Shown piece after piece: positions 5,638-21,994 of a DNA stretch of 54,804 bases; positions within the stretch are counted from its first letter, which is position 1, and each line of letters starts with the position of its first letter. The stretch is taken from positions 1 through 54,804 of IMG/VR virus record IMGVR_UViG_3300012920_000051. One strand, given 5' to 3'. The DNA is from a virus. Taxonomy: Duplodnaviria; Caudoviricetes. The notes below the pieces were generated by a model. That model made no database searches, was not told the DNA's origin, and saw only the letters and a list, made by a program, of their open reading frames with translations. A program made the position numbers and the translations under genes.

Positions 5638-5643
5638 ATAAAT

Positions 5644-5672
5644 TTGCTAAGAATTGTGGATTCGCGTATTAT
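5644..5672 (+). promoter_or_regulatory. Promoter class A: TTGCTA-N17-TATTAT
   Basis: AAATAAATTTGCTAAGAATTGTGGATTCGCGTATTAT. Confidence 0.85.
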
Positions 5673-5690
5673 ATATACACGTTCAATGTG

Positions 5691-5719
5691 ACTTTTCTAT
5701 AACTCGCCTTGAACATGTA
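5691..5719 (+). promoter_or_regulatory. Motif B, degenerate copy
   Basis: ACTTTTCTATAACTCGCCTTGAACATGTA, preceded by TTCAATGTG as at the 16094 and 18467 copies. Confidence 0.65.
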
Positions 5720-5751
5720 TCTATAACCCTACTAACTCATTGGAGTTACTG

Positions 5752-6054
5752 ATGTCTAATACCGATAATCCACGTCGTTACGCCTTCCCTGTGGGGCAAA
5801 CCACTACTGATGGCAGAGATCTTGTCGCTGTTGATGAGCCTTGTGCAACTCAGAAGATGGAGCTTTTGTCTGAGGCGTTTGCTCGAGGTGGTATGGATGC
5901 TTACAACGAGCAGATGATGATTCTTAAGCGATACCCGCCCGTTGAGGTGCATGATCTCGACACAAACTCTCCGGCGTGTCGCGCCGCATACAAGGACTTC
6001 CACAAGATGCTGAACGAGTGTCCGGTCATCCGTCGTGCGATTACGGGTAAATGA
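5752..6054 (+). CDS. Hypothetical protein
   Basis: GGAG RBS before ATG 5752; follows promoter A. Confidence 0.7.
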   Translation: MSNTDNPRRYAFPVGQTTTDGRDLVAVDEPCATQKMELLSEAFARGGMDAYNEQMMILKRYPPVEVHDLDTNSPACRAAYKDFHKMLNECPVIRRAITGK

Positions 6055-6055
6055 T

Positions 6056-6430
6056 ATGAACTACGATCTTAAGAGGATGAACAACGCCGTTGGCGTCATC
6101 AACTTGTCGCAGGGCTACGCAGTAGACCAATATATCGAGGATAATTACTTATTAGACTCAATCATCTTCGCTAAGGGTCTTGCCTTCGCGATTAACGTCT
6201 CGACGCGCGTCCGGCTTGATGACATTGACGTGCCTGTCTACTCACACTTACAGGCGTTTCGATCAAAGGCTATACTTGAGCGCTTGCGAACATCTCAGAT
6301 TGACGCAGAGCTCGTCGATGTCGCGGAGCGCTCGGGGATGTGTGTATTTGACATTAAGCATATATACTCATTCATTAAGCGTAACTACAACGCTAAGAGT
6401 CAAAAATCATTCCTAGCAGGCTTAGCTTAA
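6056..6430 (+). CDS. Hypothetical protein
   Basis: ORF abutting the upstream stop. Confidence 0.7.
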   Translation: MNYDLKRMNNAVGVINLSQGYAVDQYIEDNYLLDSIIFAKGLAFAINVSTRVRLDDIDVPVYSHLQAFRSKAILERLRTSQIDAELVDVAERSGMCVFDIKHIYSFIKRNYNAKSQKSFLAGLA

Positions 6431-6522
6431 TTCTTCGAGACATACACACGCAACGTGTAGGCATACTACTAAGACAGTCTCGTATTAGAATTCAAATAAC
6501 GCTTATAAGCGCTATAATAAAT

Positions 6523-6551
6523 TTGCTAAGAAAATAGATTATCTGTAATAT
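6523..6551 (+). promoter_or_regulatory. Promoter class A: TTGCTA-N17-TAATAT
   Basis: Matches the class A consensus; hairpin CATGATCA-ATAA-TGATCATG at the predicted +1. Confidence 0.85.
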
Positions 6552-6597
6552 ACTTACATGATCAATAATGATCATGACCCTTTAATCTCTTGTTTTA

Positions 6598-7512
6598 ATG
6601 GAAACAACGATGCAAGAACAAAACACCCTTAACCTAAACGAGTTGTACGCCGACGCTAAGAGCGTTCGCGACGCTATTAAACAAAAGGTGGCGCACTCGC
6701 GCAATCCGATGATAGAGGTATTTCACGACCACTTTGAGATCGCACTTCGGACTCCACCAATTCTAGCCGACACTGGCTTTGAAAAACTTGGCGACATCAC
6801 CGCGTTCTCGGACGCGATGCTCGCAATCAAGGATATGTGTCCTGACTATTTCGACGTTGGATTCGCGATTAACTCAATTGGCGAGATCGTACTGTACTAC
6901 CGACCGAATGCCTTTTATGCCGGGAACACGATGGCGCAGATGGTCATAGAGTCATTCACCCCCGAGGACATCGAGATTCACGTCCTGAGAGAGAGTGTCA
7001 ATCGCTTTCAGCGCCACATGCGACGTCGCTTGACAAGCACACAGGTCCGTGTCGTTAACGAGCGTACGACTGCTTCTCGTAAGACTCAACATCTTCGCGT
7101 CACTGAGAAGACTCCCGCAATCTCAGTGCCTTTTGATTGCGGTGCTCGCACGTCACCCTATGGCCGCGATTATGTTGTGTTTAGCATGAACGCCGTATAC
7201 GCAGCTGAGAACTTCGACTTGGGTTACAATCTGTCGGAGCTGATTGACCTAACTCGCCAAGGCGTGATCTCATTCTTGAAGACAACTGATTCGACTTGGA
7301 TGTGGGCGCGCCAAGACGATGACTATCGGATTGCTCCTCTTTGCTACGAGATTGATTGGGATCTCGACGAGGAGGACTACGTTCACGCCAACGCGGGTGA
7401 ACCTCTCCCAAGATTCCTTGAGCGTGACAACCTTGAGACAGCGGATGACTTTGTTAACCGCATCACTGAGGAGTATGGCTACTGCGTCTCAGGCATTCAA
7501 CCTGTCGTATAA
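6598..7512 (+). CDS. Hypothetical protein
   Basis: 304-aa ORF after promoter A; no recognised motif. Confidence 0.8.
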   Translation: METTMQEQNTLNLNELYADAKSVRDAIKQKVAHSRNPMIEVFHDHFEIALRTPPILADTGFEKLGDITAFSDAMLAIKDMCPDYFDVGFAINSIGEIVLYYRPNAFYAGNTMAQMVIESFTPEDIEIHVLRESVNRFQRHMRRRLTSTQVRVVNERTTASRKTQHLRVTEKTPAISVPFDCGARTSPYGRDYVVFSMNAVYAAENFDLGYNLSELIDLTRQGVISFLKTTDSTWMWARQDDDYRIAPLCYEIDWDLDEEDYVHANAGEPLPRFLERDNLETADDFVNRITEEYGYCVSGIQPVV

Positions 7513-7521
7513 GGAGTTATT

Positions 7522-7827
7522 ATGACAGCATCTGCATACTTCCCCCGCGCTGAAGAGATTGCCTCTGAATATAAGGGCGCGAAGATTACCCGAATTGATA
7601 ACTATTGTGGCCGCACAGGGCCTCTTGGCAAGGCGCTGCGTATAACAGTTCCTCGTGTCAATGATGTTAAGTGTCCTATTAAGCGTCTCCAACACCCTCT
7701 GCTCTCAGAGCTCCGCACCGCTTACCCTAGAGATTACCACCATCATGGTTGCCTTCGTGTAAAGATCGATGATGAGAGCATCGTTTATCTGTCTTATAAG
7801 ACTTTTGTCCTCCACTTATCGTCATAG
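7522..7827 (+). CDS. Hypothetical protein
   Basis: AAGGAG RBS; 101 aa. Confidence 0.75.
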   Translation: MTASAYFPRAEEIASEYKGAKITRIDNYCGRTGPLGKALRITVPRVNDVKCPIKRLQHPLLSELRTAYPRDYHHHGCLRVKIDDESIVYLSYKTFVLHLSS

Positions 7828-7847
7828 CATTGACAAAGGAAATCGCA

Positions 7848-8108
7848 ATGGATCACGATTTTAGACTACCTGAAGAACATAAAGAGCTCTTGGCGTTAAT
7901 TAAGAAGAACAACAAGGTTCTTGAACTCCAGCAGATTCCTTATGGAGATAACGCTTTCTTGCTTCTTGGGGCGCTACGATTCAACCTAAAAAGGGGCGGA
8001 TGGCCGCGAGAAGACGTAGACAAGGCGGTTGAGCTCTGTATGACTGGAGACTATGAGCGACTCCAACACTTCGTAAGCGTTTGTCTGCTTCATCCCAAGA
8101 AGCACTAG
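7848..8108 (+). CDS. Small conserved phage protein (NAF.LLG....LKR.G...GDY type)
   Basis: AAGGA RBS; motif DNAFLLLGALRFNLKRGGW...MTGDYERL resembles a common small phage family. Confidence 0.7.
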   Translation: MDHDFRLPEEHKELLALIKKNNKVLELQQIPYGDNAFLLLGALRFNLKRGGWPREDVDKAVELCMTGDYERLQHFVSVCLLHPKKH

Positions 8109-8137
8109 ACTTATATAAAACTACCTCTGAATCCGTA
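8109..8137 (+). promoter_or_regulatory. Motif B copy
   Basis: ACTTATATAAAACTACCTCTGAATCCGTA, ending 10 nt before the ATG at 8148. Confidence 0.8.
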
Positions 8138-8147
8138 TGGACTAATA

Positions 8148-9131
8148 ATGCGTATACCAAGCAGAATGTTCTCTATCGACACAGAGCGCACGTACTTCTA
8201 TTTCCGTCTAGCCACAGGCACTTTGTCTGTCTCTGATGGAGACATCGTACATAGCGAGCCTGTCGATGACTTCCCTGATTTTCAGATAGCCCTCTCCCAT
8301 TTAGAATACACCCGCATACGAGCCTTGATTAAGGCCCACTCCCTCACACACATGTACCTTCAGCATCTCGACCCTGATAAGATGACCCTCGTTTCAGGTA
8401 CATACGAGATCGTCGTTGAAATATGCGGAGGAATCCGCGAATGGGATGTCACCCTTCCAGGTCTTCGGCGGCTACGAGATGACGCTAAGCCTTTCACGCT
8501 TGTTAACGCCCTAAAAGAGATTAAGCCTTATATATCTAAGGACTCGTCTCGTACACTTTTACAAGGCGTCAAGGTGGCTGATGGCTTTATTTATGCGACA
8601 GACGGCATTAAGCTTATTAGATGCCCTGTTGACGCAGACTACTCTCTGTATTTGACCGCTGATGGGGTCAAAGAGATCCTAAACATGGACCGGGCGCTCA
8701 TCTTAGAGCATGAGGATCTGTTTTTCATCTCAAACTTTAAGACTACTGTGATCGCGCATAAAGACGATGATCGTATTATGGAGTTCCCTCCCGTAGAGTC
8801 TCTCATTAAGATGTTCGACGACGATACTGAGCACCCAATAAAGAGCACAATCCGTAAATCATTTCTCGATTGTAGAGGCTCTGAGGACTCGATGCTCACC
8901 TACACGATAAATGAAGACGTTCATACTTTAACGTGGGGAGACGTTACTCGCCGTTATAAGACTAAGACCTCATCGGTGTTAACGCTTAAGGCCGACATGT
9001 CATTATTACCCAAGGATCACATCTCTAGGATCGTGACAACTCGCGTACATCTAGGTGACAAAGATCAGCCAAGGTTTGTCTTGTTTCAGACAGCCGAAAA
9101 CCGGACGATTGTTCTCGCCTGTTGGTGTTAA
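8148..9131 (+). CDS. DNA polymerase III beta-clamp-like protein (divergent)
   Basis: ISKDSSRTLLQGV...IYATDGIKL and EFPPVESLI match the DnaN central-domain pattern S.D..R..L.GV...ATDG.RL and (Y/F)P. Confidence 0.65.
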   Translation: MRIPSRMFSIDTERTYFYFRLATGTLSVSDGDIVHSEPVDDFPDFQIALSHLEYTRIRALIKAHSLTHMYLQHLDPDKMTLVSGTYEIVVEICGGIREWDVTLPGLRRLRDDAKPFTLVNALKEIKPYISKDSSRTLLQGVKVADGFIYATDGIKLIRCPVDADYSLYLTADGVKEILNMDRALILEHEDLFFISNFKTTVIAHKDDDRIMEFPPVESLIKMFDDDTEHPIKSTIRKSFLDCRGSEDSMLTYTINEDVHTLTWGDVTRRYKTKTSSVLTLKADMSLLPKDHISRIVTTRVHLGDKDQPRFVLFQTAENRTIVLACWC

Positions 9132-9139
9132 ATATAAAT

Positions 9140-9168
9140 TTGCTAAGAAAAATAGATTTTGTTATTAT
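9140..9168 (+). promoter_or_regulatory. Promoter class A: TTGCTA-N17-TATTAT
   Basis: Consensus match; hairpin GTGTGATT-AACA-AATCACAC at 9186-9205. Confidence 0.85.
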
Positions 9169-9243
9169 ATATGTATTAAATGATTGTGTGATTAACAAAT
9201 CACACGCCCCCCAATCACCATTAAATCTCAAAGGAGATTGACC

Positions 9244-9780
9244 ATGCGCCATCGCAGAGCACTGCAAATGCACTCTTTCGTTTACCCATCAAGCGGTGTA
9301 TCCGATAACGGCTTGCACATGATTGTTGGATATATGCACCCTGAGCTTGGGTATCTCAACAATCACCTTCATGCGAGGGCTAACACGCCTCTCGTCTTGA
9401 TCTCTACTGTGGTGGTTAACCCACAACCTTTGGTTGTCGCTCCCGACTTGGTGACGTCTGCGCCTTGGCACTCTTTCTCGACCATCATTACAGACCTGTT
9501 CATCAAGAATTTTGGTAATCCGCTCTTGAGCGGTCATACGCAGCGGAATCTTCTTACGCACAACTACAGGGTCACTTGTGAGGCACAGGCTGTCGAGGAC
9601 CACCCATTAGGTGGCGTGATCAACGCCCAATTTATGGGGTTCGTTCCGCAATATCGCGCCGCAGATAACTTTTTAGGTCTTGAGGAGTGTGACGAACCTT
9701 ATAGGCTTTACCGCGTCACGTTCGATGACTTTAGGCAGATCACCCTCGAGGAGCGTTCACTCCTAGACTTCCCATTCTAA
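9244..9780 (+). CDS. Hypothetical protein
   Basis: AAGGAG RBS; follows promoter A. Confidence 0.75.
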   Translation: MRHRRALQMHSFVYPSSGVSDNGLHMIVGYMHPELGYLNNHLHARANTPLVLISTVVVNPQPLVVAPDLVTSAPWHSFSTIITDLFIKNFGNPLLSGHTQRNLLTHNYRVTCEAQAVEDHPLGGVINAQFMGFVPQYRAADNFLGLEECDEPYRLYRVTFDDFRQITLEERSLLDFPF

Positions 9781-10679: not shown

Positions 10680-11381
10680 ACACACAACGACTTTGAAGGT
10701 GCTTTTTCGCGCTTAGAGTCCATCGTGACCTTTGATGAGATACACAAAATCCTCTATGGAGACTTATCATTCGCGCAAGCGAGAGCATCAATTTTGAATC
10801 CCTATGAAGGTCATGTTATTCAGCTTAGAGGCAAATCTCGCTACCAATTTCACCCCGAGACATTGACGTGGGAGATCAACATTGAGGCCCCCGACGCCAA
10901 GAATCCCCTCACGATTGACGCGCCCCTAGCCCCCATTTCATCGACAAAACAGCCCTCCCCCTCCCACCACACTAGAGGACTATACTACCATAACAAAGTA
11001 GCGATGATCGCCGTCGCCTTACAAGCAACAAGCAAGCACCACAACATCAGAGAGATACACGTCGCCCTGAATGGAGCCCGCTTGAATCGCGCCCAAATAC
11101 CCCCCGGTATACCCAGAGTAATCATAAAGAACTCCCACTCCCCCCTGTACTCATTAAACGAAGCTATGAGACAACAACATAATGGGCAATATATTGATTC
11201 ATATGGCCTGTGTATGGCTTTCATGCTCAAGGCAGATCCCGATATAATAATAGGACTCAACTCCAATGACCAAGAAATTGCTACAAAACGGGCCTTGAAC
11301 CTGTCATGTAGACGGATTTTTGTACGTTCTGGGGCTTTTTTTGCTGATGGATCACCTGTTGCTGTGGCCCCTGAGCACTAG
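10665..11381 (+). CDS. Hypothetical protein
   Basis: Long ORF; start at 10647 or 10665 uncertain. Confidence 0.7.
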   Translation: MSEPVTHNDFEGAFSRLESIVTFDEIHKILYGDLSFAQARASILNPYEGHVIQLRGKSRYQFHPETLTWEINIEAPDAKNPLTIDAPLAPISSTKQPSPSHHTRGLYYHNKVAMIAVALQATSKHHNIREIHVALNGARLNRAQIPPGIPRVIIKNSHSPLYSLNEAMRQQHNGQYIDSYGLCMAFMLKADPDIIIGLNSNDQEIATKRALNLSCRRIFVRSGAFFADGSPVAVAPEH

Positions 11382-11734
11382 AGTTGTATTTACCCCCTAG
11401 AAAACGGACACCCAACCCTGTAACGCAGGTCATTTGGTGTGTGGCGCAGAGCGGATTCTTCAATGATTATAAGCACTTACGCCACATATTAGACCCAAGC
11501 GAAAGACCCGACCACCCATTGGCTACAGCAAAAGTTTGTATTTCCCCTAGGGGAAAAGCACACCACTGGTATAGATCCTTTATAAGGGTGGACACTACTT
11601 ACAGGCTCTGTGCCTTTTGTGTGGCGCAGAATAAGACCTGCGAACAGTGATCGGCCTGAGCGAAAGTTATTCGGCCACTACCCTAGACAAGAATCGACGA
11701 GGCCAAGATACAGTGACTAAGATAAGAAGCACAG

Positions 11735-11763
11735 AGTTTTAGAAAACTATGGTTGAATCTGTA
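11735..11763 (+). promoter_or_regulatory. Motif B copy (perfect palindromic arms AGTTTT-AG-AAAACT)
   Basis: AGTTTTAGAAAACTATGGTTGAATCTGTA. Confidence 0.8.
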
Positions 11764-11899
11764 TGGAGTATCGGCCTCTCAATACAGTATTTATGGCGTT
11801 GAATCGTGGCAACAAAAGCGCAATTTTGAGGTGCAAAATACAGGTTTTAAGATGCGGTGCATTACGCTTTTGAGCACCAAAAATAAATCGCTGGAGCAT

Positions 11900-11938
11900 G
11901 CAAAGAGGTTTGAAAAACGATACGGACTATGCTAATAT
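11900..11938 (+). promoter_or_regulatory. Promoter class C: TTGAAA-N17-(TGn)TAATAT with AACGATAC in the spacer
   Basis: GCAAAGAGGTTTGAAAAACGATACGGACTATGCTAATAT; near-identical copy at 13829. Confidence 0.8.
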
Positions 11939-12002
11939 ACTATTGTGTGCGCCCATGCGCCCACGCCCCGCAACCCCCGAAAACACCAAGAAGGACATGT
12001 TG

Positions 12003-12782
12003 ATGACCTACAGAAGAACCGAACCTGAACATGCCGGGTGCGTCGATAACACGACTCACGGTTATGTTGATCCCGACGTGCTCGGCAAGCGAATGTCTAC
12101 GATCAGACAGCCCGCCGCGACGCTTAGAGCCTCCATCATGGAGATACGCATCGAGAAGCTCAATGAATTGTACGAGGAGTGCATCAAAGAGGGCGACTCC
12201 CCTGCTGAAGCGCATGAATACTGCTCCAAGAAGCTCAAACTGATACCTTCAGTAACGACCTCAATGCCCAACAAGAAGACTCGCGCCCGAAGAGGTATCC
12301 GCGACCCTCAAGAGCTCAACGACATCTTGGATCTACCTGTCCGCTCGATCCAAGTGGATCACCGCCACCATCGTGACGGATTCATCTTCACGGTGCGTTA
12401 TCGCGGTCGTGATCGCCGGTATCATATGACGCACTCGCTCCTAGCGAAACTTAACCACCTCGAAGAACAATTCAACCTCACAGAGATGTCGAACAGAGAG
12501 CTTGATCGTGTGAGATCTACCCCACTCGACCGAAAGTGTCACTACACTGAGGAGAAACGCCGGGTAACATCGAACGACGACGCGCAGAGTCGCATGCGAT
12601 TCAATCGCAGATTGCATACACGGGTCGATCCGAACAGCAATCGACACGCCGTTAATCGTGAGCAGTCATCATATGATGCGCCTAAGAAGCGACGCCCCCT
12701 GACACAAGGCGCGACACCCGCAGACAGCAACTCCCGCGTTCCCGGACCTATCCAACGCAAGAGGCTCCTCAACCGACGTTAA
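12003..12782 (+). CDS. Hypothetical Arg-rich basic protein
   Basis: AAGGA RBS 7 nt before ATG 12003; the upstream extension in the ORF track overlaps the promoter. Confidence 0.75.
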   Translation: MTYRRTEPEHAGCVDNTTHGYVDPDVLGKRMSTIRQPAATLRASIMEIRIEKLNELYEECIKEGDSPAEAHEYCSKKLKLIPSVTTSMPNKKTRARRGIRDPQELNDILDLPVRSIQVDHRHHRDGFIFTVRYRGRDRRYHMTHSLLAKLNHLEEQFNLTEMSNRELDRVRSTPLDRKCHYTEEKRRVTSNDDAQSRMRFNRRLHTRVDPNSNRHAVNREQSSYDAPKKRRPLTQGATPADSNSRVPGPIQRKRLLNRR

Positions 12783-12899
12783 GCGCAACTACCCGCGCCC
12801 TTAGCCACCCACCATTCTCGATCAGCGTCAACCGACGTTGATCAGCAACACGCATGAGCGCTCGTGTTTTAAGCGCTCACCCACAACAAGGAGATTACA

Positions 12900-13664
12900 T
12901 TGGTAATCCTACCCAAGACTTCCGCGCATCAGCGCTTTGTTCACGCTCGGTACCCTGATGCCGAGCAATTCACCTGCCCTCTCGGCAACATCACCACTCA
13001 GGCGATGTACGCAGAGTTCGAACGAGCAGCGCTGATCGCAGACGGATTTGAGAAGACCACCGAAGAGATCGACACCGACCGACCAGGTATTATCGCGGCG
13101 ACATGTACGAACTATTGTGAGGACACTGACATGCAGTTCGTACTTCAATCTAAGGACTTTACAGACTATATTGACATGCTTGAGTACCTTCAGGTGCCTC
13201 CCGCCGACGATGGTGAGCGCGCACGACTCAAGATCTTCTATGATTGGGCTCACGCGCTCCACGACTTCAAGATGAACGTCAAATCATTTCAGTCTCGTCG
13301 TGATGAGCACAACCATTGGCGGTCTGTATACAAGCTTGTCCTCGAGGAGCTTAAACGCGACCAAGACGATTACGAACTGTATCTCAAAGATGCTCGTAAC
13401 ATGGTTGCTGTGTACATGGATGTCGTGAGGCTCATGTCACCGATGAACAAGGATCGCTCATGGACCCCTCTCCTTAAGAACTACCTCGACGATCGTTTAG
13501 AGGCGCAGAGGCGTGGGCTCGATCTTGAGTATCAGTGGGAAATTGAGAGCTTCGCGAACCGCAAGGAGCGTATGGAGCACAATAATCTCGCGACACAGCT
13601 TTATCGACGCATCTTCAGCGACTTGATCAAGACCGACCGCTTCCAGGAGTTACATAATGGGTGA
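12900..13664 (+). CDS. Hypothetical helical protein
   Basis: AAGGAG RBS before TTG; 254 aa. Confidence 0.8.
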   Translation: MVILPKTSAHQRFVHARYPDAEQFTCPLGNITTQAMYAEFERAALIADGFEKTTEEIDTDRPGIIAATCTNYCEDTDMQFVLQSKDFTDYIDMLEYLQVPPADDGERARLKIFYDWAHALHDFKMNVKSFQSRRDEHNHWRSVYKLVLEELKRDQDDYELYLKDARNMVAVYMDVVRLMSPMNKDRSWTPLLKNYLDDRLEAQRRGLDLEYQWEIESFANRKERMEHNNLATQLYRRIFSDLIKTDRFQELHNG

Positions 13665-13794
13665 TCACATCGTAGTCATCTTCAAAGGCTTGCTCGCCGC
13701 AGTGCTCTTTGTTCCTTGCCTGATGGTAACTCTGTTCTTGGAGTTCCCATTGTATTCGAGCATCATCCTGTTCTGCATCTACAGCACTAACTGA
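13657..13794 (+). CDS. Small membrane protein (45 aa)
   Basis: AGGAG RBS; MGDHIVVIFKGLLAAVLFVPCLMVTLFLEFPLYSSIILFCIYSTN; below the ORF-track cutoff. Confidence 0.55.
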   Translation: MGDHIVVIFKGLLAAVLFVPCLMVTLFLEFPLYSSIILFCIYSTN

Positions 13795-13828
13795 TAACCC
13801 TAGACCTTGATATATATCGACAGCGCGC

Positions 13829-13867
13829 GCAAAGAGATTTGAAAAACGATACGGGATATGATACTGT
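13829..13867 (+). promoter_or_regulatory. Promoter class C: TTGAAA-N17-(TGn)TACTGT
   Basis: GCAAAGAGATTTGAAAAACGATACGGGATATGATACTGT. Confidence 0.8.
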
Positions 13868-13939
13868 ATATGTGCGCCCTGCTCGCACCCCGCGCGCACG
13901 TCGCCAACAACCAAGCACATTGACTAAGGAGTCAATCAC

Positions 13940-14776
13940 ATGTCAAACAAGACAACCCCAACCGCTAACGAGACGATCACGCCGTTCAACGTCGAGGATC
14001 TCCAATTCACAGGCACATACGCCACCACCTCTGAGGAGCTCGCGAACGAGAGCTTGTGCATCGACAACGAGCCTGACGCGCCTGCTACTCAGAAGCTCCT
14101 CGCAGTGCTCCCCGATGTTCGTGAGGGCGCTCTCGATGCGCTCAACGGCAACCCGACGTTCAGCAGCCTGAAGAAGCTTTGTGCGTTGGCCACCAACAAG
14201 GAGGCACCCGAGGTCATCGCGACCAACATCGGCAACATCGCTTTCAATCGAGGCACCACTAAAACGCAAGTAAGCTGGAGCCTGACTGACTTCCGCACCA
14301 AGAAGAACCCTTCAGCGACTCGCCTCGAGCAGATCGCAACGCTCAAGCAGATTGCGATTGCAGGTATTGAGAAGGCTTCTCTTCGAGACATGAGCAGTCG
14401 CAACGTCGCCAAGGGTCAAGGCCAATTGATGAGCCACATCACATGTATGGCGATCCTCCGCGCGACCTCGCAGTGGCACAACTTGACGCACGTCGAGCAG
14501 GCTCACTATTCCGCGCGAGCACACCGCCCCGATGCCGACGCAGTGATCGCGTACACCTTCGGTACTTCGCTTGAGGGTGTCGTGCTTGCTACAGCGATCG
14601 CGATCGCAGAGGGTCCCAACTTGTTCGCGGTGGCTATCTACAACGCGGTGGCTACTGCGCTTGATGTCGGACAGATCGCGCTCCCTGAAGGTATGATTGA
14701 CGAGGACGTGACCGCGCCGAACATCAAGGTGACTGTCGTGAAGAACCCAATGTCTCAAATCAACATGGAGTCGTGA
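13940..14776 (+). CDS. Hypothetical protein
   Basis: TAAGGAG RBS; 278 aa; follows promoter C. Confidence 0.85.
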   Translation: MSNKTTPTANETITPFNVEDLQFTGTYATTSEELANESLCIDNEPDAPATQKLLAVLPDVREGALDALNGNPTFSSLKKLCALATNKEAPEVIATNIGNIAFNRGTTKTQVSWSLTDFRTKKNPSATRLEQIATLKQIAIAGIEKASLRDMSSRNVAKGQGQLMSHITCMAILRATSQWHNLTHVEQAHYSARAHRPDADAVIAYTFGTSLEGVVLATAIAIAEGPNLFAVAIYNAVATALDVGQIALPEGMIDEDVTAPNIKVTVVKNPMSQINMES

Positions 14777-14777
14777 C

Positions 14778-15224
14778 ATGGGGCTTAACCTTAAGAGGCT
14801 CAATTCTGATGCACCGGCTGACCCGATCTTGATGTACGGACGCTTCTTGTCGATCCTAGATACGTTGGAGTTGTTCACGTTCGCGTGTAAGAGCTGCCAC
14901 ACCAAGCGGATCAACAACCCGTCCGGCAAGATCTATCCCAACTGCGAGAAGTGTCGAGTGCGTAATCTACGAGAGGGTTTGCCTCCTCTCAAGCACATGT
15001 TCGATCACTTGGGTCGCCCGACTCCTCTACATCAGCAGTTCACGCTTGATAAGGTTCTCCGCATCATCGCGAAGCGGTTCGAGCAGATCTGCGTTACCTA
15101 TCAGGACGATGACATCATGGCCACCACTGCGGACTTGCTCTCCCGCTTCTTGGAGGCCAACGGGCTGTCGATCTGGGATGCTGTTGAAGACACTCCCCCC
15201 GCAGTTGACGCGCCTGTTCTGTAG
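14778..15224 (+). CDS. Hypothetical Zn-ribbon protein
   Basis: CKSC...CEKC; GGAG RBS. Confidence 0.7.
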   Translation: MGLNLKRLNSDAPADPILMYGRFLSILDTLELFTFACKSCHTKRINNPSGKIYPNCEKCRVRNLREGLPPLKHMFDHLGRPTPLHQQFTLDKVLRIIAKRFEQICVTYQDDDIMATTADLLSRFLEANGLSIWDAVEDTPPAVDAPVL

Positions 15225-15597
15225 ATCGCTCCCCCTAGTGATCCTCTCCTGTACCATAGGATGCACTCCCCGCACCGAGATGATTTGTTGCCAACGCCTT
15301 CAGGGGCAAACGCAGTTTATCAAATCTCATGTGATCGGGGGGAACATCAAGCCGAGATTCAACCGAATCACCGACTCGGCGGTACGCGCGTACTGCAGAC
15401 GCACCTCCCCGAAGGCAGTCTGCTACACATTGGAGGTCGCGCTACAGCGCTATCCCGAAGGGCGTCCTCGCGAATACGGAGAGCTCGTATTTGGGATCTA
15501 CACACTGAGAAACTGCCTGTACTGCAAGACAGTCACGCTCTGCGAAGGTGATGTCGAACGCTTAGAGTGTCCACCCACAGACGAAATCGTAGAGTGA
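15205..15597 (+). CDS. Hypothetical Cys-rich protein, possibly exported or a lipoprotein
   Basis: Hydrophobic LPLVILSCTIGC near a TTG start; start uncertain. Confidence 0.45.
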   Translation: MTRLFCRSLPLVILSCTIGCTPRTEMICCQRLQGQTQFIKSHVIGGNIKPRFNRITDSAVRAYCRRTSPKAVCYTLEVALQRYPEGRPREYGELVFGIYTLRNCLYCKTVTLCEGDVERLECPPTDEIVE

Positions 15598-15603
15598 CTT
15601 AAG

Positions 15604-15640
15604 AGCCTGTCGCGAAAGAGCAATCGCGATGGGCTTTTTC
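15604..15640 (+). terminator. Rho-independent terminator
   Basis: AGCCTGTCGCGA-loop-TCGCGATGGGCT followed by TTTT, right after the 15597 stop. Confidence 0.75.
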
Positions 15641-15719
15641 GTAAGCTGCGCGCGCGTGTAAACTCGGGTCGAGATCTCGGGGCGAGCCTGATTCCTGTGG
15701 CTGTAGACAACAACTACGG

Positions 15720-16050
15720 CGAAGTGCTATTAGACGAAGCTAATAAGCAACACACAAAGTGACAAGAAAAGCGCAAAGCGACTTGGCTAAACGGTTATCT
15801 ACAAGCGAAAGATCAAAGCGAAAGATCGAAAGCTACAGGTGGCGGACCCTAGCGAAAGTGCTTGGAACGAGAACGAGCGCAAACCGCCATAAGCGAGGTT
15901 TTCGCAAAGACGAGCTCTACAAGCATTTTGAACAGCATATACAGCGCATCTTACGAGCGACCAAAGCGCTTACTACGAGCGACTTGCTTCTTTAAGGCAA
16001 GCGATCCTGCTTCCCTAGCCAAGCTGTGCTTGTGATGAGCCGAGCGTTGC
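15720..16050 (+). repeat. AGCG(A)-rich non-coding spacer 1
   Basis: About 13 AGCG (8 AGCGA) in about 280 bp on the + strand, counted by eye. Confidence 0.7.
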
Positions 16051-16084
16051 CTGTTATTGGTATCAGCCGGTTCTGTCGTACTGA

Positions 16085-16142
16085 TTCAACGTGACTTTTC
16101 TAAAACTTTTTTATTGCGCTCGTCTTCTGTGTGTAATACTAT
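16085..16142 (+). promoter_or_regulatory. Sigma70-type promoter TTGCGC-N17-TACTAT with upstream motif-B core
   Basis: TTCAACGTGACTTTTCTAAAACTTTT upstream element shared with 18458; -35 at 16114-19, -10 at 16137-42. Confidence 0.7.
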
Positions 16143-16230
16143 TGACACGATGTTGTGATAACATCGCTACACTTGAAACCGTGTCTCTTGTGACACACAT
16201 ACACCGCGCTTATGCGCCCAGGGTAACGCT

Positions 16231-17151
16231 ATGAACGCTTATACTTTCCCTCGTCACTTTGCTGATCCATCACGCGATGAAATCAATGTTCTCTTGACTG
16301 ATGATCATCTACGCGCTGATCTTGATGATAACGCTCGTCTTCGCATGTTGTCTAATGACTTGTCACCGTTCTTTGTTGATAACATCTCTGATCTTTATGA
16401 TGATGTGCCAACCTTTCACACCGGTAACGATACATATACTCCTGATTTCTCTAATCTGCTTAAATATATTGACATGCTTGATGCTGTGATCACTGATTAT
16501 TTCTTTGATGATCCTATGTTGATTGATCTCGCTATTCGTGAATGTAATTACGCATTACCACGACGATCAACAAACTTGATTCATTCTCGCTCTGATCTTT
16601 CGCGCGTCTATGCTCGTCTGTATGCTCACTATGTCACCTTCTCAAATTCAACGATTACTCATGATCGTGTGTTTAAACAAATCAATCACATGATCGAATA
16701 CGCGCGCGACCATATGCCGAACGCTCACTTCATTATCACCGATGATTGCATGCAATCGCTTCAACTTCCATCCTTGATGCATTTGATTAACTATTGCGCT
16801 CTCACACCTTCGCGTATCATCTCGCATCACTTGATCCCGCGATCTGTTAACACTGAATCATTTCTTGATATCGTGCTCTACTGCAACTCACATTTTGATA
16901 TGCCTCGATACCTCTATACACGCTATAATGATCTATATGAACAATCACATCATATTGACTTTGATGATCTCCGCTCAATTAATGTTTATATGACTGCATA
17001 TACTACGCTATCACCGCTTTCTATGCGATACCCTGCCAACAATCATCACGCTCACAATAATGTTGATCTTAACACCGATCATACACACCAATACTACAAC
17101 ACCCTACCTATGCTTGATTCCGCTCCTAATGTCTGTAAATTCACGCGCTGA
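16231..17151 (+). CDS. Hypothetical protein encoded without AG and with one GG (306 aa; 1 Gly, 0 Trp; D/H/N/Y/L-rich)
   Basis: 921-bp ORF with promoter and AGGG RBS-like island at 16220-23. Confidence 0.8.
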   Translation: MNAYTFPRHFADPSRDEINVLLTDDHLRADLDDNARLRMLSNDLSPFFVDNISDLYDDVPTFHTGNDTYTPDFSNLLKYIDMLDAVITDYFFDDPMLIDLAIRECNYALPRRSTNLIHSRSDLSRVYARLYAHYVTFSNSTITHDRVFKQINHMIEYARDHMPNAHFIITDDCMQSLQLPSLMHLINYCALTPSRIISHHLIPRSVNTESFLDIVLYCNSHFDMPRYLYTRYNDLYEQSHHIDFDDLRSINVYMTAYTTLSPLSMRYPANNHHAHNNVDLNTDHTHQYYNTLPMLDSAPNVCKFTR

Positions 17152-17349
17152 TACTCTCCAGCCGGGTAACGATACGCACTAAAACACTCTCTAACCACGT
17201 TTAACACTCTAACCTATGTGTTGATACACGTCGCGACCGAAACGCACTACACGCGCTAATCTCGCGACGATTTGAACACTCCCCATCTGACCACTTGACC
17301 GCGATTGAACCCACCCGACCCCCAACCGCGCTAAAGCACCCTCTCCCCT

Positions 17350-17993
17350 GAGGATTGCAAGCCAAGCCTCTCCTATGAGGGGCTTAAGTCAAGCGACTAA
17401 TTAAAGATATCAAGGTAGTAGAACAAAGAGGAAGGCGATTGATTAGCGAAGCGATTGCTTTGACCGGTGGGCGTGTGCCGTAAGCGAAGAAAAAATTTTT
17501 ACGAGCGTTAGCTGTATCTCGATTTCGACCGAGATAGATCGCGATTCAAATCTGGATGCCTCGATCATGATCGCGAGGTGTGCTCGGAAGAACCACAAGA
17601 GGTACCTTGATGACCGACAAGTGAAACGAGAAAGACGCTACGGTTGCATCCTGATGTTTCCTAGCACTATCGAGCAAGAACCAAAAGCGACGCGCTAAAC
17701 TCGCCAAAGTGACTCGCGAACCCCGAACAAGTGAAGCGCTTTCGCCTCGCGAACAAGAATCGAGAGCGCCTCTATGAGCGCCCTAGCTAAAAAATGTAGC
17801 GACACAAGCCAAGCCAAAACTTTACTACGGCAAGGCCACATAGCGACAAAATAAGTGGCCCGAGGTGATCAGCGACAATAGTACCTGGGTGGTACTCTTT
17901 GTTGACGTTTCCTAGGATAACCTTAGCGAAAGTTGCGCTTAAGGTGAGGTAACATCGGCTAGGCCGAAAGGCGAGACTCGGGACGAGCGAAAG
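17350..17993 (+). repeat. AGCG(A)-rich non-coding spacer 2
   Basis: About 14 AGCG (10 AGCGA) in about 640 bp, counted by eye; no convincing ORF; starts with hairpin AAGCCTCTC-CTAT-GAGGGGCTT at 17364-85. Confidence 0.65.
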
Positions 17994-18042
17994 TTGCGAA
18001 CGCAATCTTTCGTATAAATCGCGATTTTTCGCGATTTTTGCT

Positions 18043-18308
18043 GTTCGCCCTGACCGAACGATCACCCCCTCATCGTTCGATCAAACCGAATTGTCAAATA
18101 ATCGAAATAATGCTTGACATGCGTTCCGGACGTGTAACGCTATGCAACCTTGTACAACCTTCCCCGCCTCTCTAAATATCGTTCTGTTTAACCGAACGAT
18201 TAACCTTGTACAACCTTGTACACCGTTTTGTCCGCCTCGTGAAATTTCGCGTATCGTCTCCATGAAATTTCGTGTGTCGTCTCCATGAAATTTCGTGTGT
18301 CGTCTCCA
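18043..18308. repeat. Left repeat cluster: GTTCG-N7-CGAAC palindromes, AACCTTGTAC repeats and a 3x23-bp tandem repeat
   Basis: Palindromes near 18043, 18074 and 18178; AACCTTGTAC at 18146, 18202 and 18212; TGAAATTTCGTGTGTCGTCTCCA-type unit x3 at 18240-18308. Confidence 0.85.
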
Positions 18309-18457
18309 CTCGATTCCACGCGCGCGACATCATCACGCTCTGATCATTCACGGGCTCGTATCGTTACGCTCTTGTGTCGATTCTACGCGCCACCTGTAAA
18401 TTTTTTTCAAACTGAATTATGTAACGATTACGAACACTTACGCTGCGTCATTACACA

Positions 18458-18512
18458 TTCAACGTCACTTTTCTAAAACTTTTCTTGACCTCCTCGATCA
18501 ATCTGCTATTGT
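18458..18512 (+). promoter_or_regulatory. Sigma70-type promoter TTGACC-N16-(TGn)TATTGT with upstream motif-B core
   Basis: TTCAACGTCACTTTTCTAAAACTTTT element as at 16085; hairpin TGTGATC..GATCACA at the predicted +1. Confidence 0.7.
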
Positions 18513-18573
18513 GCCTCATGTGATCGCTGTTGATCACACACCAAACCATTTGACTCCACAGGGAGACAACGAT

Positions 18574-19275
18574 ATGACATTCACTCTGAATGATCTTACT
18601 ACCCTCGCAACCGCTAAACGCAACCGCGCCACCTCAATCGCTCCTGACGCTCACACCATCGACGTCACCACGCTACGCTCCGATGCTCCTCTGATCACTG
18701 ATCACCCGCTCGCTACGTTCATCAATGACCTGTCAAACGCTCGTACTGTGCTCGCTAACTGCACGTCATACGATGACCGCATGATTGTCTCTGATCACGC
18801 CTCAATGTACCTCGACAACGACCGTAAATGCTTTGTGCTGTGCCTCGATGCTCACGACGCTAAACGCGCTCCTCGTACCTCTGGACATAACGTTGTGACT
18901 CTCACCGCCGACCGCGCTACGCTCAAACGCTCTGACATGCGCCACGCCGTTAACGCCTTCGTTTCGATCGCTCACGTGTCGATCATGCTTGACCGCTTTG
19001 CATCCTACCTCACGCATCCTGTGACTGCTATCGCCTTCACACGTTCACGCGCTCATGATCTCACCTCTAACGTGATCCGATATGATCACACTCACTACTC
19101 ACCTGTAACTCTCGCTCACGCGACCGCTTGCGCTGTCGTGATCCTCTCTGATCACAACCACGACACATACGCGCCCGCCTTCAACGCATGCCTTGATATG
19201 CTGAACGCATCTGATCACGCGCTCACCATCACCTGTGACGCTTACCCTGACTCTGTGCGCGCTCCTCTCGCTTGA
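18574..19275 (+). CDS. Hypothetical protein encoded without AG and with one GG (233 aa; 1 Gly; no Glu, Gln or Trp)
   Basis: AGGGAG RBS at 18560-65 is one of the few RG islands; promoter upstream and terminator downstream. Confidence 0.8.
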   Translation: MTFTLNDLTTLATAKRNRATSIAPDAHTIDVTTLRSDAPLITDHPLATFINDLSNARTVLANCTSYDDRMIVSDHASMYLDNDRKCFVLCLDAHDAKRAPRTSGHNVVTLTADRATLKRSDMRHAVNAFVSIAHVSIMLDRFASYLTHPVTAIAFTRSRAHDLTSNVIRYDHTHYSPVTLAHATACAVVILSDHNHDTYAPAFNACLDMLNASDHALTITCDAYPDSVRAPLA

Positions 19276-19352
19276 CGCGCTGACTTGACCTGACATGTGA
19301 TTGCGTGACTTGACTCCACATCATCGACCGCGATCACCACGCTCTACGCCTT

Positions 19353-19388
19353 GAAACGCGACGCTCAAAACGTCGCGTTTCTTGTTTG
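19353..19388 (+). terminator. Rho-independent terminator
   Basis: Perfect 11-bp stem GAAACGCGACG-CTCAAAA-CGTCGCGTTTC followed by TTGTTTG. Confidence 0.7.
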
Positions 19389-19731
19389 TGTGCTCTCCAG
19401 GAAGACACCGATATGATGCTGTGATCTCTGCGCAGCCGGGTATCGTTACGCGCTTGATCCTTTGTTTTGAATCCTCCCCCTACCTCCTATGCTCTTTGTG
19501 TGTGTCTCACCTCTTCGCCTCGTGTCTTGTGATGATGTGTCGTGTGCCTCACGCGCGCTCTAATGCCTCTCTATGCTCGCTTGCGCTCTCTACCTATACC
19601 TACCCCTATGTTGACTTGCTTACGTTCCTCTGTGTGCAATCTCGCGCGTCTTGTGTTTCCACGTTGCGCGCGTGTGTGCTATCCGCCGTGTCTCGTCTCA
19701 CCTTGCTTGACCTCTCGCGTTGGTATCGTTG

Positions 19732-19895
19732 CGCGTGAAATCTCCACGCGCGACCGCGTGAAATCTCCACGCCTCAACCTTGTACAACCTTGTACACGCG
19801 CGACCGCCCGACCGCGCGACCGTTCGCTCAAACCGAACGATGAAAAAACCGAAAAAAAATCAAAAAAAACCTGTACAACCTTTGTACAACGATAC
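19732..19895. repeat. Right repeat cluster: 23-bp-period repeat, AACCTTGTAC repeats, GTTCG-N7-CGAAC palindrome and A-tracts
   Basis: CGCGTGAAATCTCCACGC at 19732 and 19755; AACCTTGTAC at 19776 and 19786, variants at 19868 and 19877; palindrome near 19821; A-tracts at 19843-69. Confidence 0.85.
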
Positions 19896-20014
19896 TGTGA
19901 ACGCGCGTTCACACTCGCGAATTCCTGAAAATTTCTGAAAAAAACCCGAAATCACGAACCGCGGAGCCCTGACCGCCTTTACGACGGAGTGAATTTCCCT
20001 AGACTCGGACAAAA

Positions 20015-20043
20015 AGTTTCCGAAAACTACCGTTGAATCCGTA
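20015..20043 (+). promoter_or_regulatory. Motif B copy
   Basis: AGTTTCCGAAAACTACCGTTGAATCCGTA. Confidence 0.8.
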
Positions 20044-20125
20044 TAAGAGACAGAAATAACTCTTGATAAATGGCGATTTGTTTGGTATTTTACATATACA
20101 CAAAGATCGCAAATAACTGCAAGAC

Positions 20126-20452
20126 ATGGAGCAATACATGACAAGACTATTCCTGTTAAAAACCAAAGGCAAAGACCACACGGGCAAGCTGTGGGGCCAC
20201 TCTAAGATGCACCTTATTACTTTCGCGACTGATCTTTTACGAGAGGGTCACATATTAGAGGCTACGATCTACGAGGCGATCTTTGAGCATGACTCGTCGT
20301 TGCGTCAACTGTTGGTGTCTGTGTTGAACGGCGAATCAAAACCCACACACAACCAAGTGTGGCGTTCTACGGCCTCTGATCACGAGGCGCAGCTACAAGA
20401 CGTACAAGACATTCAATCCGTACAAGACATTCAATCCGTGGAGCCATCATGA
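20126..20452 (+). CDS. Hypothetical protein with a C-terminal 18-bp tandem duplication (VQDIQS x2)
   Basis: ORF coupled to rusA by ATGA; repeat at 20401-20436. Confidence 0.65.
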   Translation: MEQYMTRLFLLKTKGKDHTGKLWGHSKMHLITFATDLLREGHILEATIYEAIFEHDSSLRQLLVSVLNGESKPTHNQVWRSTASDHEAQLQDVQDIQSVQDIQSVEPS

Positions 20453-21575: not shown

Positions 21576-21673
21576 ACGAGCCTCCGAAGGCGCATCGGAC
21601 AGATGCAGATATACTTTAGGGATAGATAAAAATTACCATATTGATGTATCTCTTAAAAGCAATCAATAATCAT

Positions 21674-21702
21674 TTGCTAAGCCAATCGGGATCATGTATG
21701 AT
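21674..21702 (+). promoter_or_regulatory. Promoter class A: TTGCTA-N17-TATGAT
   Basis: Consensus match; hairpin GTGATGT..ACATCAC at 21714-36; upstream of the CdbA-like gene. Confidence 0.8.
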
Positions 21703-21769
21703 ATTTACGTCATGTGATGTGTTTATCATACATCACTTCATTCAATCGAAACCAAATCAAGGAGCAACG

Positions 21770-21994
21770 ATGGCTAAAGAAGAGAGTCGCTCTACGTCTT
21801 GTAAGAAGACGATCTACTTCCCGAGCGCGATGCTTGATGAGATCCAACAAGAATGCACGCGCCTTGAGCGCAGCTTCTCTTGGGTCATGCAACGCGCGTG
21901 GCGCATCGCGAGAGAGACTGTACAAGAGATGCCGGGTGTTGAATTAGCAGAGACAACCGACCAACGGGAGGCTGAAGATGCTCACATTGGGTAA
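21770..21994 (+). CDS. cdbA: CdbA/CdbB-like ribbon-helix-helix protein (TIGR04563, MXAN_4361/4362 family; binds c-di-GMP and DNA in Myxococcus)
   Basis: KKTIYFPSAMLDEIQQECTRLERSFSWVMQRAWRIAR aligns without gaps to the recalled M. xanthus CdbA KQSLYFPEEMLKEIQEEATRQDRSLSWVVQQAWKIAR; AAGGAG RBS. Confidence 0.85.
   Translation: MAKEESRSTSCKKTIYFPSAMLDEIQQECTRLERSFSWVMQRAWRIARETVQEMPGVELAETTDQREAEDAHIG

What the first reader, a model, noticed from the sequence alone, without database searches (positions are those of the whole stretch)
15720..17993. AGCGA-rich polar spacers alternate with the RG-free blocks
Seen: the non-coding DNA just before each RG-free block (15720-16050 and 17350-17993) has the opposite composition. 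It is AG-rich, with about 27 AGCG and about 18 AGCGA (often AGCGAAAG or AGCGAC) in about 950 bp on the + strand, where about 4 AGCG would be expected by chance. Two more AGCGAAAG lie near 11498 and 11659. Inference: an organised on/off pattern (dense sites, none, dense, none) for the same RG-reading activity, for example loading, priming, modification or pausing zones upstream of protected genes, or staged DNA entry.
Basis: partly seen in the sequence, partly recalled or inferred. Interest (0 to 1): 0.75.

Follow-up and report, generated by a model that had tools for sequence, protein, structure and literature searches.

The report
Polar repeat arrays between phage early genes
The AGCGA-rich stretches are real, non-coding, one-strand-biased remains of a 22-base repeat lying in front of two unusual early genes of an uncultured marine phage; they are probably docking arrays for a protein, and the exact word AGCGA is a local dialect that the closest relative does not share.

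Summary
S1 (15720-16050) and S2 (17350-17993) carry 27 AGCG and 18 AGCGA on the + strand and 0 TCGCT, against about 5 and 1.6 expected from the window's own rates. They do not code, match no Rfam family and hold no tRNA.

AGCGA is not the conserved unit. The closest relative (L001) keeps both RG-free blocks and both purine-rich spacers in the same places, but has 0 AGCGA in them. Its words are CAAGT, AAGTA and AGAGAAAGTT.

Two things are conserved:
- a polar word class, AAGYRA;
- a degenerate 22-bp direct-repeat register with half-sites 13+9 apart. It ends about 50 bp before the early promoter element in both phages.

S1 and S2 resemble each other within a genome more than they resemble their orthologues.

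Best reading (0.4): arrays of protein-binding sites, iteron- or operator-like, that co-evolve with a lineage-specific binder. Rivals are a transcribed multi-site 3' UTR, a functionless repeat fossil, and Chi-like polar sites. A shared "RG-reading" activity is neither shown nor excluded. RG density in the spacers is only slightly above average, though AAG is 2.3-4.3 times enriched.

The parts
15601..15640 (+). T0: intrinsic terminator of the upstream operon; S1 begins after it
   Evidence: A 15-pair hairpin followed by UUUUU, -24.2 kcal/mol, z -3.65. Equivalent hairpins follow the last upstream ORF in L001 (5521-5547) and L130.
15641..16078 (+).
   Evidence: RNA fold z is -0.25, so it is not structured. 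It has no protein-level match to L001 or L130.
15803..15833 (+). 13-bp tandem repeat AAGCGAAAGATCGA, 2.3 copies
   Evidence: TRF score 55.
15943..16048 (+). Phased array with a 22-bp register. AGCGH half-sites lie at 15943, 15956, 15965, 15978, 16000 and 16043 (spacing 13, 9, 13, 22, 43), with AGCTG at 16022 in register. The array ends 51 bp before the promoter element at 16094.
   Evidence: Lag-22 self-identity is 0.46 against a null 99th percentile of 0.41. L001 has the same geometry with RCAAG half-sites (spacing 9, 13, 9, 13, 9, 13, 9, 22), ending 47 bp before its element.
16079..16150 (+). P1 region: a 32-nt A/T-rich element (ACTTTTCTAAAACTTTT core) shared with P2; inferred early promoter of ORF1
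   Evidence: 91% identical to 18452-18483 (D15) and conserved in L001. The hexamer scan did NOT call a -35/-10 pair here, so this promoter is inferred.
16231..17151 (+). ORF1 (306 aa) inside RG-free block 1 (16070-17335); 1 Gly, 0 Trp, acidic, no family
   Evidence: One homologue at 52% identity, also with 1 Gly and 0 Trp.
17336..18015 (+).
   Evidence: Every frame holds TAA, TAG and TGA. Fold z is -3.6 on both strands, which indicates local palindromes rather than a strand-specific RNA fold.
17501..17850 (+). Core of the degenerate 22-bp array in S2. AAG(Y)GA-type words lie in one register at 17597, 17619, 17685, 17707 and 17729.
   Evidence: Lag-22 identity 0.36-0.40 and lag-44 identity 0.38 in 200-bp windows, against means near 0.25. 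Rows of 22 are shown; positions come.
17925..17995 (+). Two copies of AGCGAAAGTT (17925-17934 and 17986-17995) at the 3' end of S2, just before RG-free block 2
   Evidence: 4 copies of RGMGAAAGTT in the window, all on the + strand, against 0.5 expected. L001 has AGAGAAAGTT twice at the same place (7651, 7679) and 7 in all against 0.19 expected. L130 has GAGCGAAAGTT twice just before its C-rich block.
18016..18037 (+). T1: intrinsic terminator at the end of S2
   Evidence: 9-pair stem followed by a U run.
18452..18512 (+). P2: promoter of ORF2 (TTGACC, 16-nt spacer, TATTGT with upstream TG), preceded by the shared A/T-rich element
18574..19275 (+). ORF2 (233 aa) inside RG-free block 2 (17993-19963), followed by terminator T2 at 19353-19381
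   Evidence: 30% identical to L001 8161-8841.
11498..11668 (+). The two outlying AGCGAAAG (11498, 11659) in a separate intergenic region
   Evidence: That region holds an element TTGTATTTACCCCCTAGAAAACGGACAC that is identical in L001. In L130, AGCGAAAGTT abuts a copy of this element.

Best explanation
The two spacers are fast-evolving, non-coding arrays of a degenerate direct repeat. The unit is 22 bp and holds two same-orientation half-sites 13 and 9 bp apart. The half-site core belongs to the word class AAGYRA. In this phage the preferred form is AAGCGA/AGCGA, so the AGCGA excess is simply the repeated half-site plus its decayed copies.

The arrays most likely work as double-stranded DNA. 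Many copies of a lineage-specific DNA-binding protein would dock on one face of the helix, since 22 bp is about two turns. The arrays lie next to the strong host-type early promoters and the iteron-rich block 2, as iterons, operators or plasmid centromeres do. Such docking could set early-gene expression, replication start or DNA handling.

Shown: the enrichment, the strand polarity, the non-coding nature, the 22-bp register, positional conservation in a relative, word turnover between genomes, and word sharing within a genome.

Inferred: that a protein binds, which protein, and what the binding does.
For: 1. Register. AGCGH sites lie at 15943, 15956, 15965, 15978, 16000 and 16043. L001's RCAAG sites lie at 5806-5903 with spacing 9, 13, 9, 13, 9, 13, 9, 22. 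Both arrays end about 50 bp before the shared promoter element.
2. Lag-22 self-identity is 0.46 (window) and 0.66 (L001) in the S1 arrays, and 0.34 and 0.33 over whole S2. Each exceeds the 99th percentile of shuffles.
3. Among about 1,090 windows of 200 bp, 10 of the 12 highest lag-22 values lie in S1 or S2. In 62,237 lag-by-window tests, 10 of the top 25 rows lie in S1 or S2, and 8 of those are lag 22 or 44. L001's top lag-22 windows are also its S1 and S2.
4. AAGYRA on the + strand, observed/expected: window S1 7/0.35, window S2 7/0.54, L001 S1 9/0.22, L001 S2 12/0.39. On the - strand the counts are 1, 1, 0 and 4.
5. Concerted word use. The 4-mer profile correlation between S1 and S2 is 0.59 within the window and 0.57 within L001. 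Between orthologous spacers it is 0.31 and 0.29.
6. Flanking proteins are 61-89% identical, yet blastn aligns nothing inside the spacers. Composition and words are kept while sequence is not.
7. S1 lies behind a terminator and has no called promoter. An RNA role is therefore hard to give to S1.
Against: - No DNA-binding protein was identified. ORF1 and ORF2 hit no Pfam or PHROG family. The ORF2 model is poor (pLDDT 56.8) and matches no fold. A nearby ORF (21641-21994) gives only a sub-threshold ribbon-helix-helix hit (E 0.0045, 17.1 bits against a cut-off of 26).
- The units are very degenerate. TRF at score 30 finds only the 13-bp repeat in the window's spacers.
- AAG, AG, AA and RG positions show no 10-11 bp periodicity over the whole spacers.
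- 10 of the 18 AGCGA lie in S2, where few are in register.
- The AAGYRA class was defined after seeing the data.
- Only one relative (L001; L131-L133 are the same phage) shows whole spacers. L130 shows 231 bp and has no lag-22 signal.
- The purine bias of one strand is not needed for a duplex binding site.
Confidence: 0.4

Rival explanations
1. RNA-level multi-site element. S2 is transcribed from P1 as an 870-nt 3' UTR of ORF1. Its many AAGYRA/AGCGA words would act as a sponge or entry platform for an RNA-binding protein or ribonuclease, possibly the same factor that the RG-free coding parts avoid.
For: - S2 lies between the ORF1 stop (17151) and a strong intrinsic terminator (18016-18037), with no terminator in between.
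- The words are strictly strand-polar, which is natural for RNA.
- Inside the blocks, RG survives almost only in ribosome-binding-site-like motifs, which suggests an RNA-level constraint on the blocks.
- Conserved word content with free sequence is what sponge RNAs such as CsrB show (recalled, not tested).
Against: - S1 sits behind terminator T0 with no called promoter.
- L001 has no + strand terminator at the end of its S2.
- S1 RNA is unstructured (z -0.25), and S2 folds equally well on both strands.
- No Rfam match.
- Duplex energies between spacer RNA and block RNA are no better than for shuffled spacers: 2, 8 and 10 of 40 shuffles did as well.
- A 22-nt register has no obvious meaning in RNA.
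Confidence: 0.2
2. Repeat fossil without present function. The spacers arose by tandem duplication or slippage of a short unit and are decaying. Word sharing between S1 and S2 reflects occasional recombination, and the purine bias is drift or a mutational skew.
For: - The units are highly degenerate.
- The spacers are unalignable with the relative's by blastn.
- L130 seems to have a single short spacer, so a spacer-plus-cassette unit can be lost or gained.
Against: - The spacers are kept at the same two places, with the same polarity and register, in phages whose spacer sequences are saturated with change.
- AGMGAAAGTT is kept in two copies at the same end of S2 in three phages.
- Phage genomes rarely keep more than 1 kb of useless DNA (general knowledge).
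Confidence: 0.2
3. Polar control sites for a DNA translocase or nuclease, like Chi or KOPS. One-orientation short words would stop or steer a host enzyme that tracks along the entering DNA, and would differ between phages because the hosts differ.
For: - Strict single orientation, irregular spacing in most of S2, a short word, and a different word in the relative.
- AGCGA resembles the Bacillus Chi AGCGG (recalled, not tested).
Against: - Outside the spacers AGCGA (73) is rarer than TCGCT (106), so there is no genome-wide skew.
- The host and the genome ends are unknown; contigs gave no ends.
- The 22-bp register is not expected for Chi-like sites.
Confidence: 0.08

Closest known systems
Iteron arrays of plasmid and phage replication origins (for example the seven 22-bp iterons of R6K, and those of RK2 oriV and P1 oriR; recalled from the literature, not retrieved here)
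   Same: Several direct repeats in one orientation on a register of about 22 bp, lying next to a promoter and a fast-evolving gene, with the repeat word changing between relatives.
   Different: - The units are far more degenerate, and in S2 they extend over about 350 bp.
- No Rep-family gene was found.
- DnaA boxes are not enriched (13 against 9.9 expected).
- One strand has a strong purine bias.
Plasmid centromeres and operators bound by ribbon-helix-helix proteins (ParR-parC, omega heptads; recalled)
   Same: Arrays of short direct repeats upstream of a promoter that bind many protein copies cooperatively.
   Different: No ParR or ParM-like genes were found. The only ribbon-helix-helix hint is below threshold. 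This is a lytic-looking myovirus contig.
Short-repeat arrays SRL/SRR beside the terminal repeat of phage T7 (recalled)
   Same: Non-coding arrays of a short A/G-containing word, all in one orientation, close to the host-polymerase early promoters; their function is still unclear.
   Different: A different word and period. The genome ends of this phage are unknown, so nearness to a terminus could not be tested.
Multi-site sponge RNAs such as CsrB/RsmZ (recalled)
   Same: Many copies of one short word in a non-coding stretch, with the words conserved and the sequence free.
   Different: The word is not GGA. There is no Rfam match, S1 has no promoter, and the words are not shown to sit in hairpin loops.

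Membership tests
Iteron-type origin / iteron array | Three or more direct repeats of about 17-22 bp on a register of about 22 bp | tested here: met
   The units are degenerate.
Iteron-type origin / iteron array | Adjacent initiator (Rep) gene of a known family | tested here: not met
   ORF1, ORF2 and their neighbours have no Pfam or PHROG hit. The ORF2 fold has no match.
Iteron-type origin / iteron array | DnaA boxes and an A/T-rich unwinding element beside the iterons | tested here: inconclusive
   DnaA-box matches are 13 against 9.9 expected, with one in S1. An A-rich tract exists at 19843-19869 but is 1.8 kb away.
Iteron-type origin / iteron array | Initiator protein binds the repeats | not testable with these tools
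   Needs EMSA or footprinting.
Known structured RNA (Rfam families, tRNA/tmRNA) | Match to a covariance model or a tRNA fold | tested here: not met
   0 matches at gathering score in the whole window. In 11300-20200 only two chance-level hits (E 0.58 and 2.9), neither in a spacer. 0 tRNA.
Protein-coding gene | Open frame, 3-nt periodicity, conserved translation | tested here: not met
   S2 has all three stop types in all six frames, and every frame of S1 holds stops. No period-3 signal. No tblastn match to the relatives apart from promoter words.
Chi-like polar sites | The word is the host's recombination hotspot and is skewed in the host genome | not testable with these tools
   The host is unknown. 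The closest cultured phage terminase is 41% identical.
CsrB/Rsm-type sponge RNA | Own promoter and terminator, with GGA words in hairpin loops | tested here: not met
   No promoter was called in S1 or S2. The word is AAGYRA, not GGA. No Rfam hit.

The most novel reading that the evidence does not exclude
The purine-rich arrays and the RG-free cassettes are two halves of one conserved system. A strand-reading factor (a ribonuclease, helicase or primase, of the host or injected by the phage) needs a purine-G step such as AAG in order to bind or cut. The arrays would offer it dozens of sites, to trap it, load it or set a boundary. The earliest genes would be written without any such step, except at ribosome-binding sites, so that they stay invisible to it. 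The word dialect (AAGCGA here; AAGTAA/AAGTGA in the relative) would track the factor's specificity.
Probability: 0.12. Interest if true: 0.85.

Novelty: new variant of a known kind. Interest (0 to 1): 0.5.

Why it matters
If the arrays are binding sites, they mark the control region of the earliest genes of an uncultured marine myovirus lineage. They also give a handle (repeat word against candidate protein) for finding the regulator.

They are the only sequence context of a much stranger feature: early genes written without AG or GG. That feature is conserved in a protein family whose distant members also lack glycine and tryptophan.

Knowing that AGCGA is a dialect and not the conserved unit prevents a wrong link being built between the two features.

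Tried and rejected
Rejected readings
- Coding. Every frame of S1 holds stops and S2 has all three stop types in every frame. No conserved translation. Rejected.
- Known RNA. Rfam at gathering score and at E up to 5, and ARAGORN, found nothing in the spacers.
- Antisense pairing of spacer RNA with block RNA is not better than for shuffled spacers (the script timed out after three of four comparisons).
- Helical (10-11 bp) or codon periodicity of AAG, AG, AA or RG over the whole spacers: none. The 22-bp register showed up only by sequence self-identity.
- DnaA boxes are not enriched.

Searches for relatives
- blastn against the phage collection found no match.
- The ORF1 protein scan of viral contigs found none.
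- The promoter-word scan gave 120 mostly unrelated A/T-rich contigs, none with RG-free blocks except L001.
- The iteron-word scan gave only L001's own contig.
- The metagenome scan gave L130 plus three copies of L001's phage.
- P0005 and P0006 were not found in viral contigs.
- More distant terminase relatives (L124-L129) have only partial G-poor stretches and no 22-bp arrays.

Neighbouring proteins
- ORF2: the AlphaFold model has pLDDT 56.8 and no Foldseek match at E <= 0.001.
- The ESM Atlas gave nothing usable for ORF1 or ORF2.

Expression and genome ends
- No RNA holder is listed for this stretch.
- Only contigs could be laid. They break at the 23-bp repeats (18254-18306) and show no genome ends.

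Literature
- Four searches were seen as listings and abstract starts only. They turned up nothing on strand-specific AG/GG avoidance or on such spacer arrays.
- PMC11543638 (passages read) says that no consensus motif could be identified for DarT1, so the idea of avoiding guanine ADP-ribosylation could not be tested.
- Supplementary files were not consulted.
Full report
CONTEXT. The window is one 54.8-kb contig and is all that is held of its genome. It belongs to an uncultured myovirus: PhoH, ThyX, ribonucleotide reductase, RusA, terminase, portal, major head protein, tail sheath and baseplate are present. The nearest cultured terminase is 41% identical. Nearly all genes read on the + strand.

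THE OBSERVATION. There are 13 + 14 AGCG and 8 + 10 AGCGA in 331 + 644 bp, and 0 TCGCT. The window's rates are 5.16 AGCG and 1.66 AGCGA per kb. 18 of the 91 AGCGA in the window lie in 1.8% of its length.

Against the spacers' own base and dinucleotide content the excess stands: 1.5 and 4.0 AGCGA expected at orders 0 and 1. Against their own trinucleotide content it shrinks to 18 against 11, because the word itself sets those counts. Among all strand-specific 5-mers, the S1 cluster ranks 11th.

The RG-free blocks are real. The + strand has gaps without AG or GG of up to 737 nt between 16070 and 19963, and no gap longer than 84 nt elsewhere. The - strand has nothing comparable.

The spacers are not unusually rich in RG. 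They hold 33-44 per 300 bp against a mean of 31.7, sd 9.2. They are among the most purine-rich (0.58-0.61) and AAG-rich (13-18 against a mean of 5.7) parts of the window.

WHAT THE SPACERS ARE NOT.
- They do not code. Every frame of S1 holds stops and S2 has all three stop types in all six frames, so no single stop reassignment opens a frame. There is no period-3 signal and no translated match to the relatives.
- They match no Rfam family, and there is no tRNA.
- S1 RNA is no more stable than shuffles (z -0.25). S2 is (z -3.6), but equally on both strands. That points to local palindromes, among them the terminator.

TRANSCRIPTIONAL SETTING.
- A strong hairpin with a U run (15601-15640) ends the upstream operon, and S1 follows it.
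- A 32-nt A/T-rich element stands before both ORF1 (16079-16110) and ORF2 (18452-18483), 91% identical between the two.
- At P2 it is followed by TTGACC-16-TATTGT. At P1 the scan called no hexamer pair, so P1 is inferred.
- S2 lies between the ORF1 stop and an intrinsic terminator at 18016-18037.
- S2 is therefore probably transcribed as a long 3' UTR, and S1 probably is not. L001 has no + strand terminator at the end of its S2.

RELATIVES. L001 has RusA 81%, terminase 89% and the upstream 278-aa protein 61% identical to the window's. It is collinear with the window from 10.6 to 23 kb. It keeps two + strand RG-free blocks (about 6001-7040 and 7720-9500) and two purine-rich spacers before them (about 5560-5935 and 7041-7715). 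Those spacers contain 0 AGCGA. Their enriched words are CAAGT, GCAAG, AAGTA, AAAGT and AAGAG.

blastn aligns nothing inside the spacers. MAFFT gives only short anchors, such as TAAGTCAAG, ATATCAAG, AGAGGA and AG(C/A)GAAAGTT.

L131-L133 are the same phage as L001. L130, a third lineage, shows a 231-bp spacer with four AGCGA (three of them as AGCGAAAGT) and then the start of a C-rich block at the contig end.

WHAT IS CONSERVED.
(a) A word class. At aligned places, AAGCGA in the window corresponds to AAGTGA, AAGTAC or AAGCTA in L001, and AGCGAAAGTT corresponds to AGAGAAAGTT. The class AAGYRA was defined after seeing this, so it is post hoc. It occurs on the + strand 7, 7, 9 and 12 times in the four spacers against 0.35, 0.54, 0.22 and 0.39 expected. 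It occurs 1, 1, 0 and 4 times on the - strand. AAG alone is 2.3-4.3 times enriched.

(b) A register.
- In L001, RCAAG sites run 9, 13, 9, 13, 9, 13, 9, 22 bp apart. TRF finds a 22-bp unit in 3.7 copies.
- In the window, AGCGH sites run 13, 9, 13, 22, 43 bp apart, with AGCTG filling the register at 16022.
- Both arrays end 47-51 bp before the promoter element.
- Self-identity at lag 22 exceeds the 99th percentile of shuffles in the S1 arrays and over the whole of S2, in both phages.
- In the whole window, 10 of the 12 highest lag-22 windows lie in S1 or S2.
- Over lags 4-60 (62,237 tests), 10 of the top 25 rows lie in S1 or S2. The other 15 lie mostly in the iteron-rich ends of block 2 and in one coding repeat.
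- In S2, AAG-type words stand in one register at 17597, 17619, 17685, 17707 and 17729.

(c) A fixed element. RGMGAAAGTT occurs 4 times in the window (all on the + strand, 0.5 expected) and 7 times in L001 (0.19 expected). Two copies stand at the 3' end of S2 in the window, L001 and L130.

(d) Concerted evolution. The word profiles of S1 and S2 correlate better within a genome (r 0.59 and 0.57 for 4-mers) than between orthologous spacers (0.31 and 0.29).

READING. Four features are the signature of arrays of protein-binding sites on duplex DNA:
- a repeat on a two-turn register;
- direct orientation;
- a position just upstream of a strong promoter;
- turnover of the half-site word between relatives while the geometry is kept, with the word shared by both arrays of one genome.

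Iterons, operators of cooperative repressors and plasmid centromeres all look like this.

The AGCGA excess is then the half-site and its decayed copies. I put this at 0.4. It is not higher for four reasons: no binder was found, the units are very degenerate, most S2 copies are out of register, and the one-strand purine bias is not explained.

The rivals are a transcribed multi-site 3' UTR (0.2), a functionless repeat fossil (0.2) and Chi-like polar sites (0.08).

It is not excluded for AAG. The alternation of AAG-rich arrays and RG-free cassettes is conserved in the two phages in which it can be seen. I give the linked-system reading 0.12.

THE TWO OUTLYING AGCGAAAG. The copies at 11498 and 11659 lie in another intergenic region. 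That region holds an element (TTGTATTTACCCCCTAG...ACACC) that is identical in L001 and present in L130. In L130, AGCGAAAGTT directly abuts this element. They belong with the conserved AGMGAAAGTT element, not with the 22-bp arrays.

LIMITS.
- Only one independent relative shows complete spacers.
- No expression data exist.
- The host and the genome ends are unknown.

Noticed in passing
window 16220, 16423, 17160, 18128, 18352, 18560, 18883, 19399, 19436, 19722; L001 about 6066, 8150, 8345, 8625, 9225: The few AG/GG left inside the RG-free blocks sit almost all in one recurring motif. It is either ribosome-binding-site-like (GGRGAYAACGMT before ATG), or GG(G)TAACGATAC and its inverse-core form GGTATCGTTAC. 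It also occurs in frame inside ORFs as Gly-Asn-Asp, and that GND is kept in the 52% homologue of ORF1.
   Followed up: partly
window 18574-19275 (ORF2) and proteins P0005-P0008: A profile search found 6 clusters of ORF2 relatives. The four distant ones (E 1e-11 to 4e-22) have 0 or 1 glycine and no tryptophan. Avoidance of GG (and so of Gly and Trp codons) is therefore old and widespread in this family.
   Followed up: partly
window 5691, 8109, 11735(-), 16094, 18467, 22863, 26312(-), 43007, 48525: The near-palindromic word ACTTTTCTAAAACT / ACTTTTAGAAAACT gives 11 matches with up to 2 mismatches, against 0.33 expected. Most lie just before ORF starts, including terminase and the two early ORFs. 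It could be a promoter-associated element or a regulator site.
   Followed up: no
window 11384-11411 and 11536-11564; L001 2064, 2213, 2245; L130 about 170 and 321: A 28-nt element, TTGTATTTACCCCCTAGAAAACGGACAC, is identical in the window and L001 inside an otherwise diverged intergenic region, and it is repeated there. It may be a promoter or a small RNA start.
   Followed up: no
window 18040-18310 and 19730-19880: ORF2 and its non-coding tail are bracketed by repeat sets. These are AACCTTGTACAACCTT (5 copies), GTTCG..AACCGAACGAT (3 copies), a 23-bp unit in 3 copies (18240-18308) and CGCGTGAAATCTCCACGC in 2 copies. L001 has the same arrangement. The assembly contigs of run X1 break at the 23-bp repeats.
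   Followed up: partly
window 19399-19425: After terminator T2 there is a ribosome-binding-site-like AGGAAGACACCGAT followed by a three-codon mini-ORF, ATG ATG CTG TGA.
   Followed up: no
window 46585-46784: A small secondary cluster of 4 AGCGA in a 379-bp gap between called ORFs (46497-46875), with about 0.6 expected from the window's rate of 1.66 per kb; 1 TCGCT in the same gap.
   Followed up: no
L127 300-1900, L128 400-1900 (- strand); L129 300-2000 (+ strand): More distant terminase relatives (46-63% identity) have partially G-poor, RG-poor stretches a few kb upstream of terminase. RG-free gaps reach only 150-195 nt there, and there are no 22-bp arrays.
   Followed up: partly
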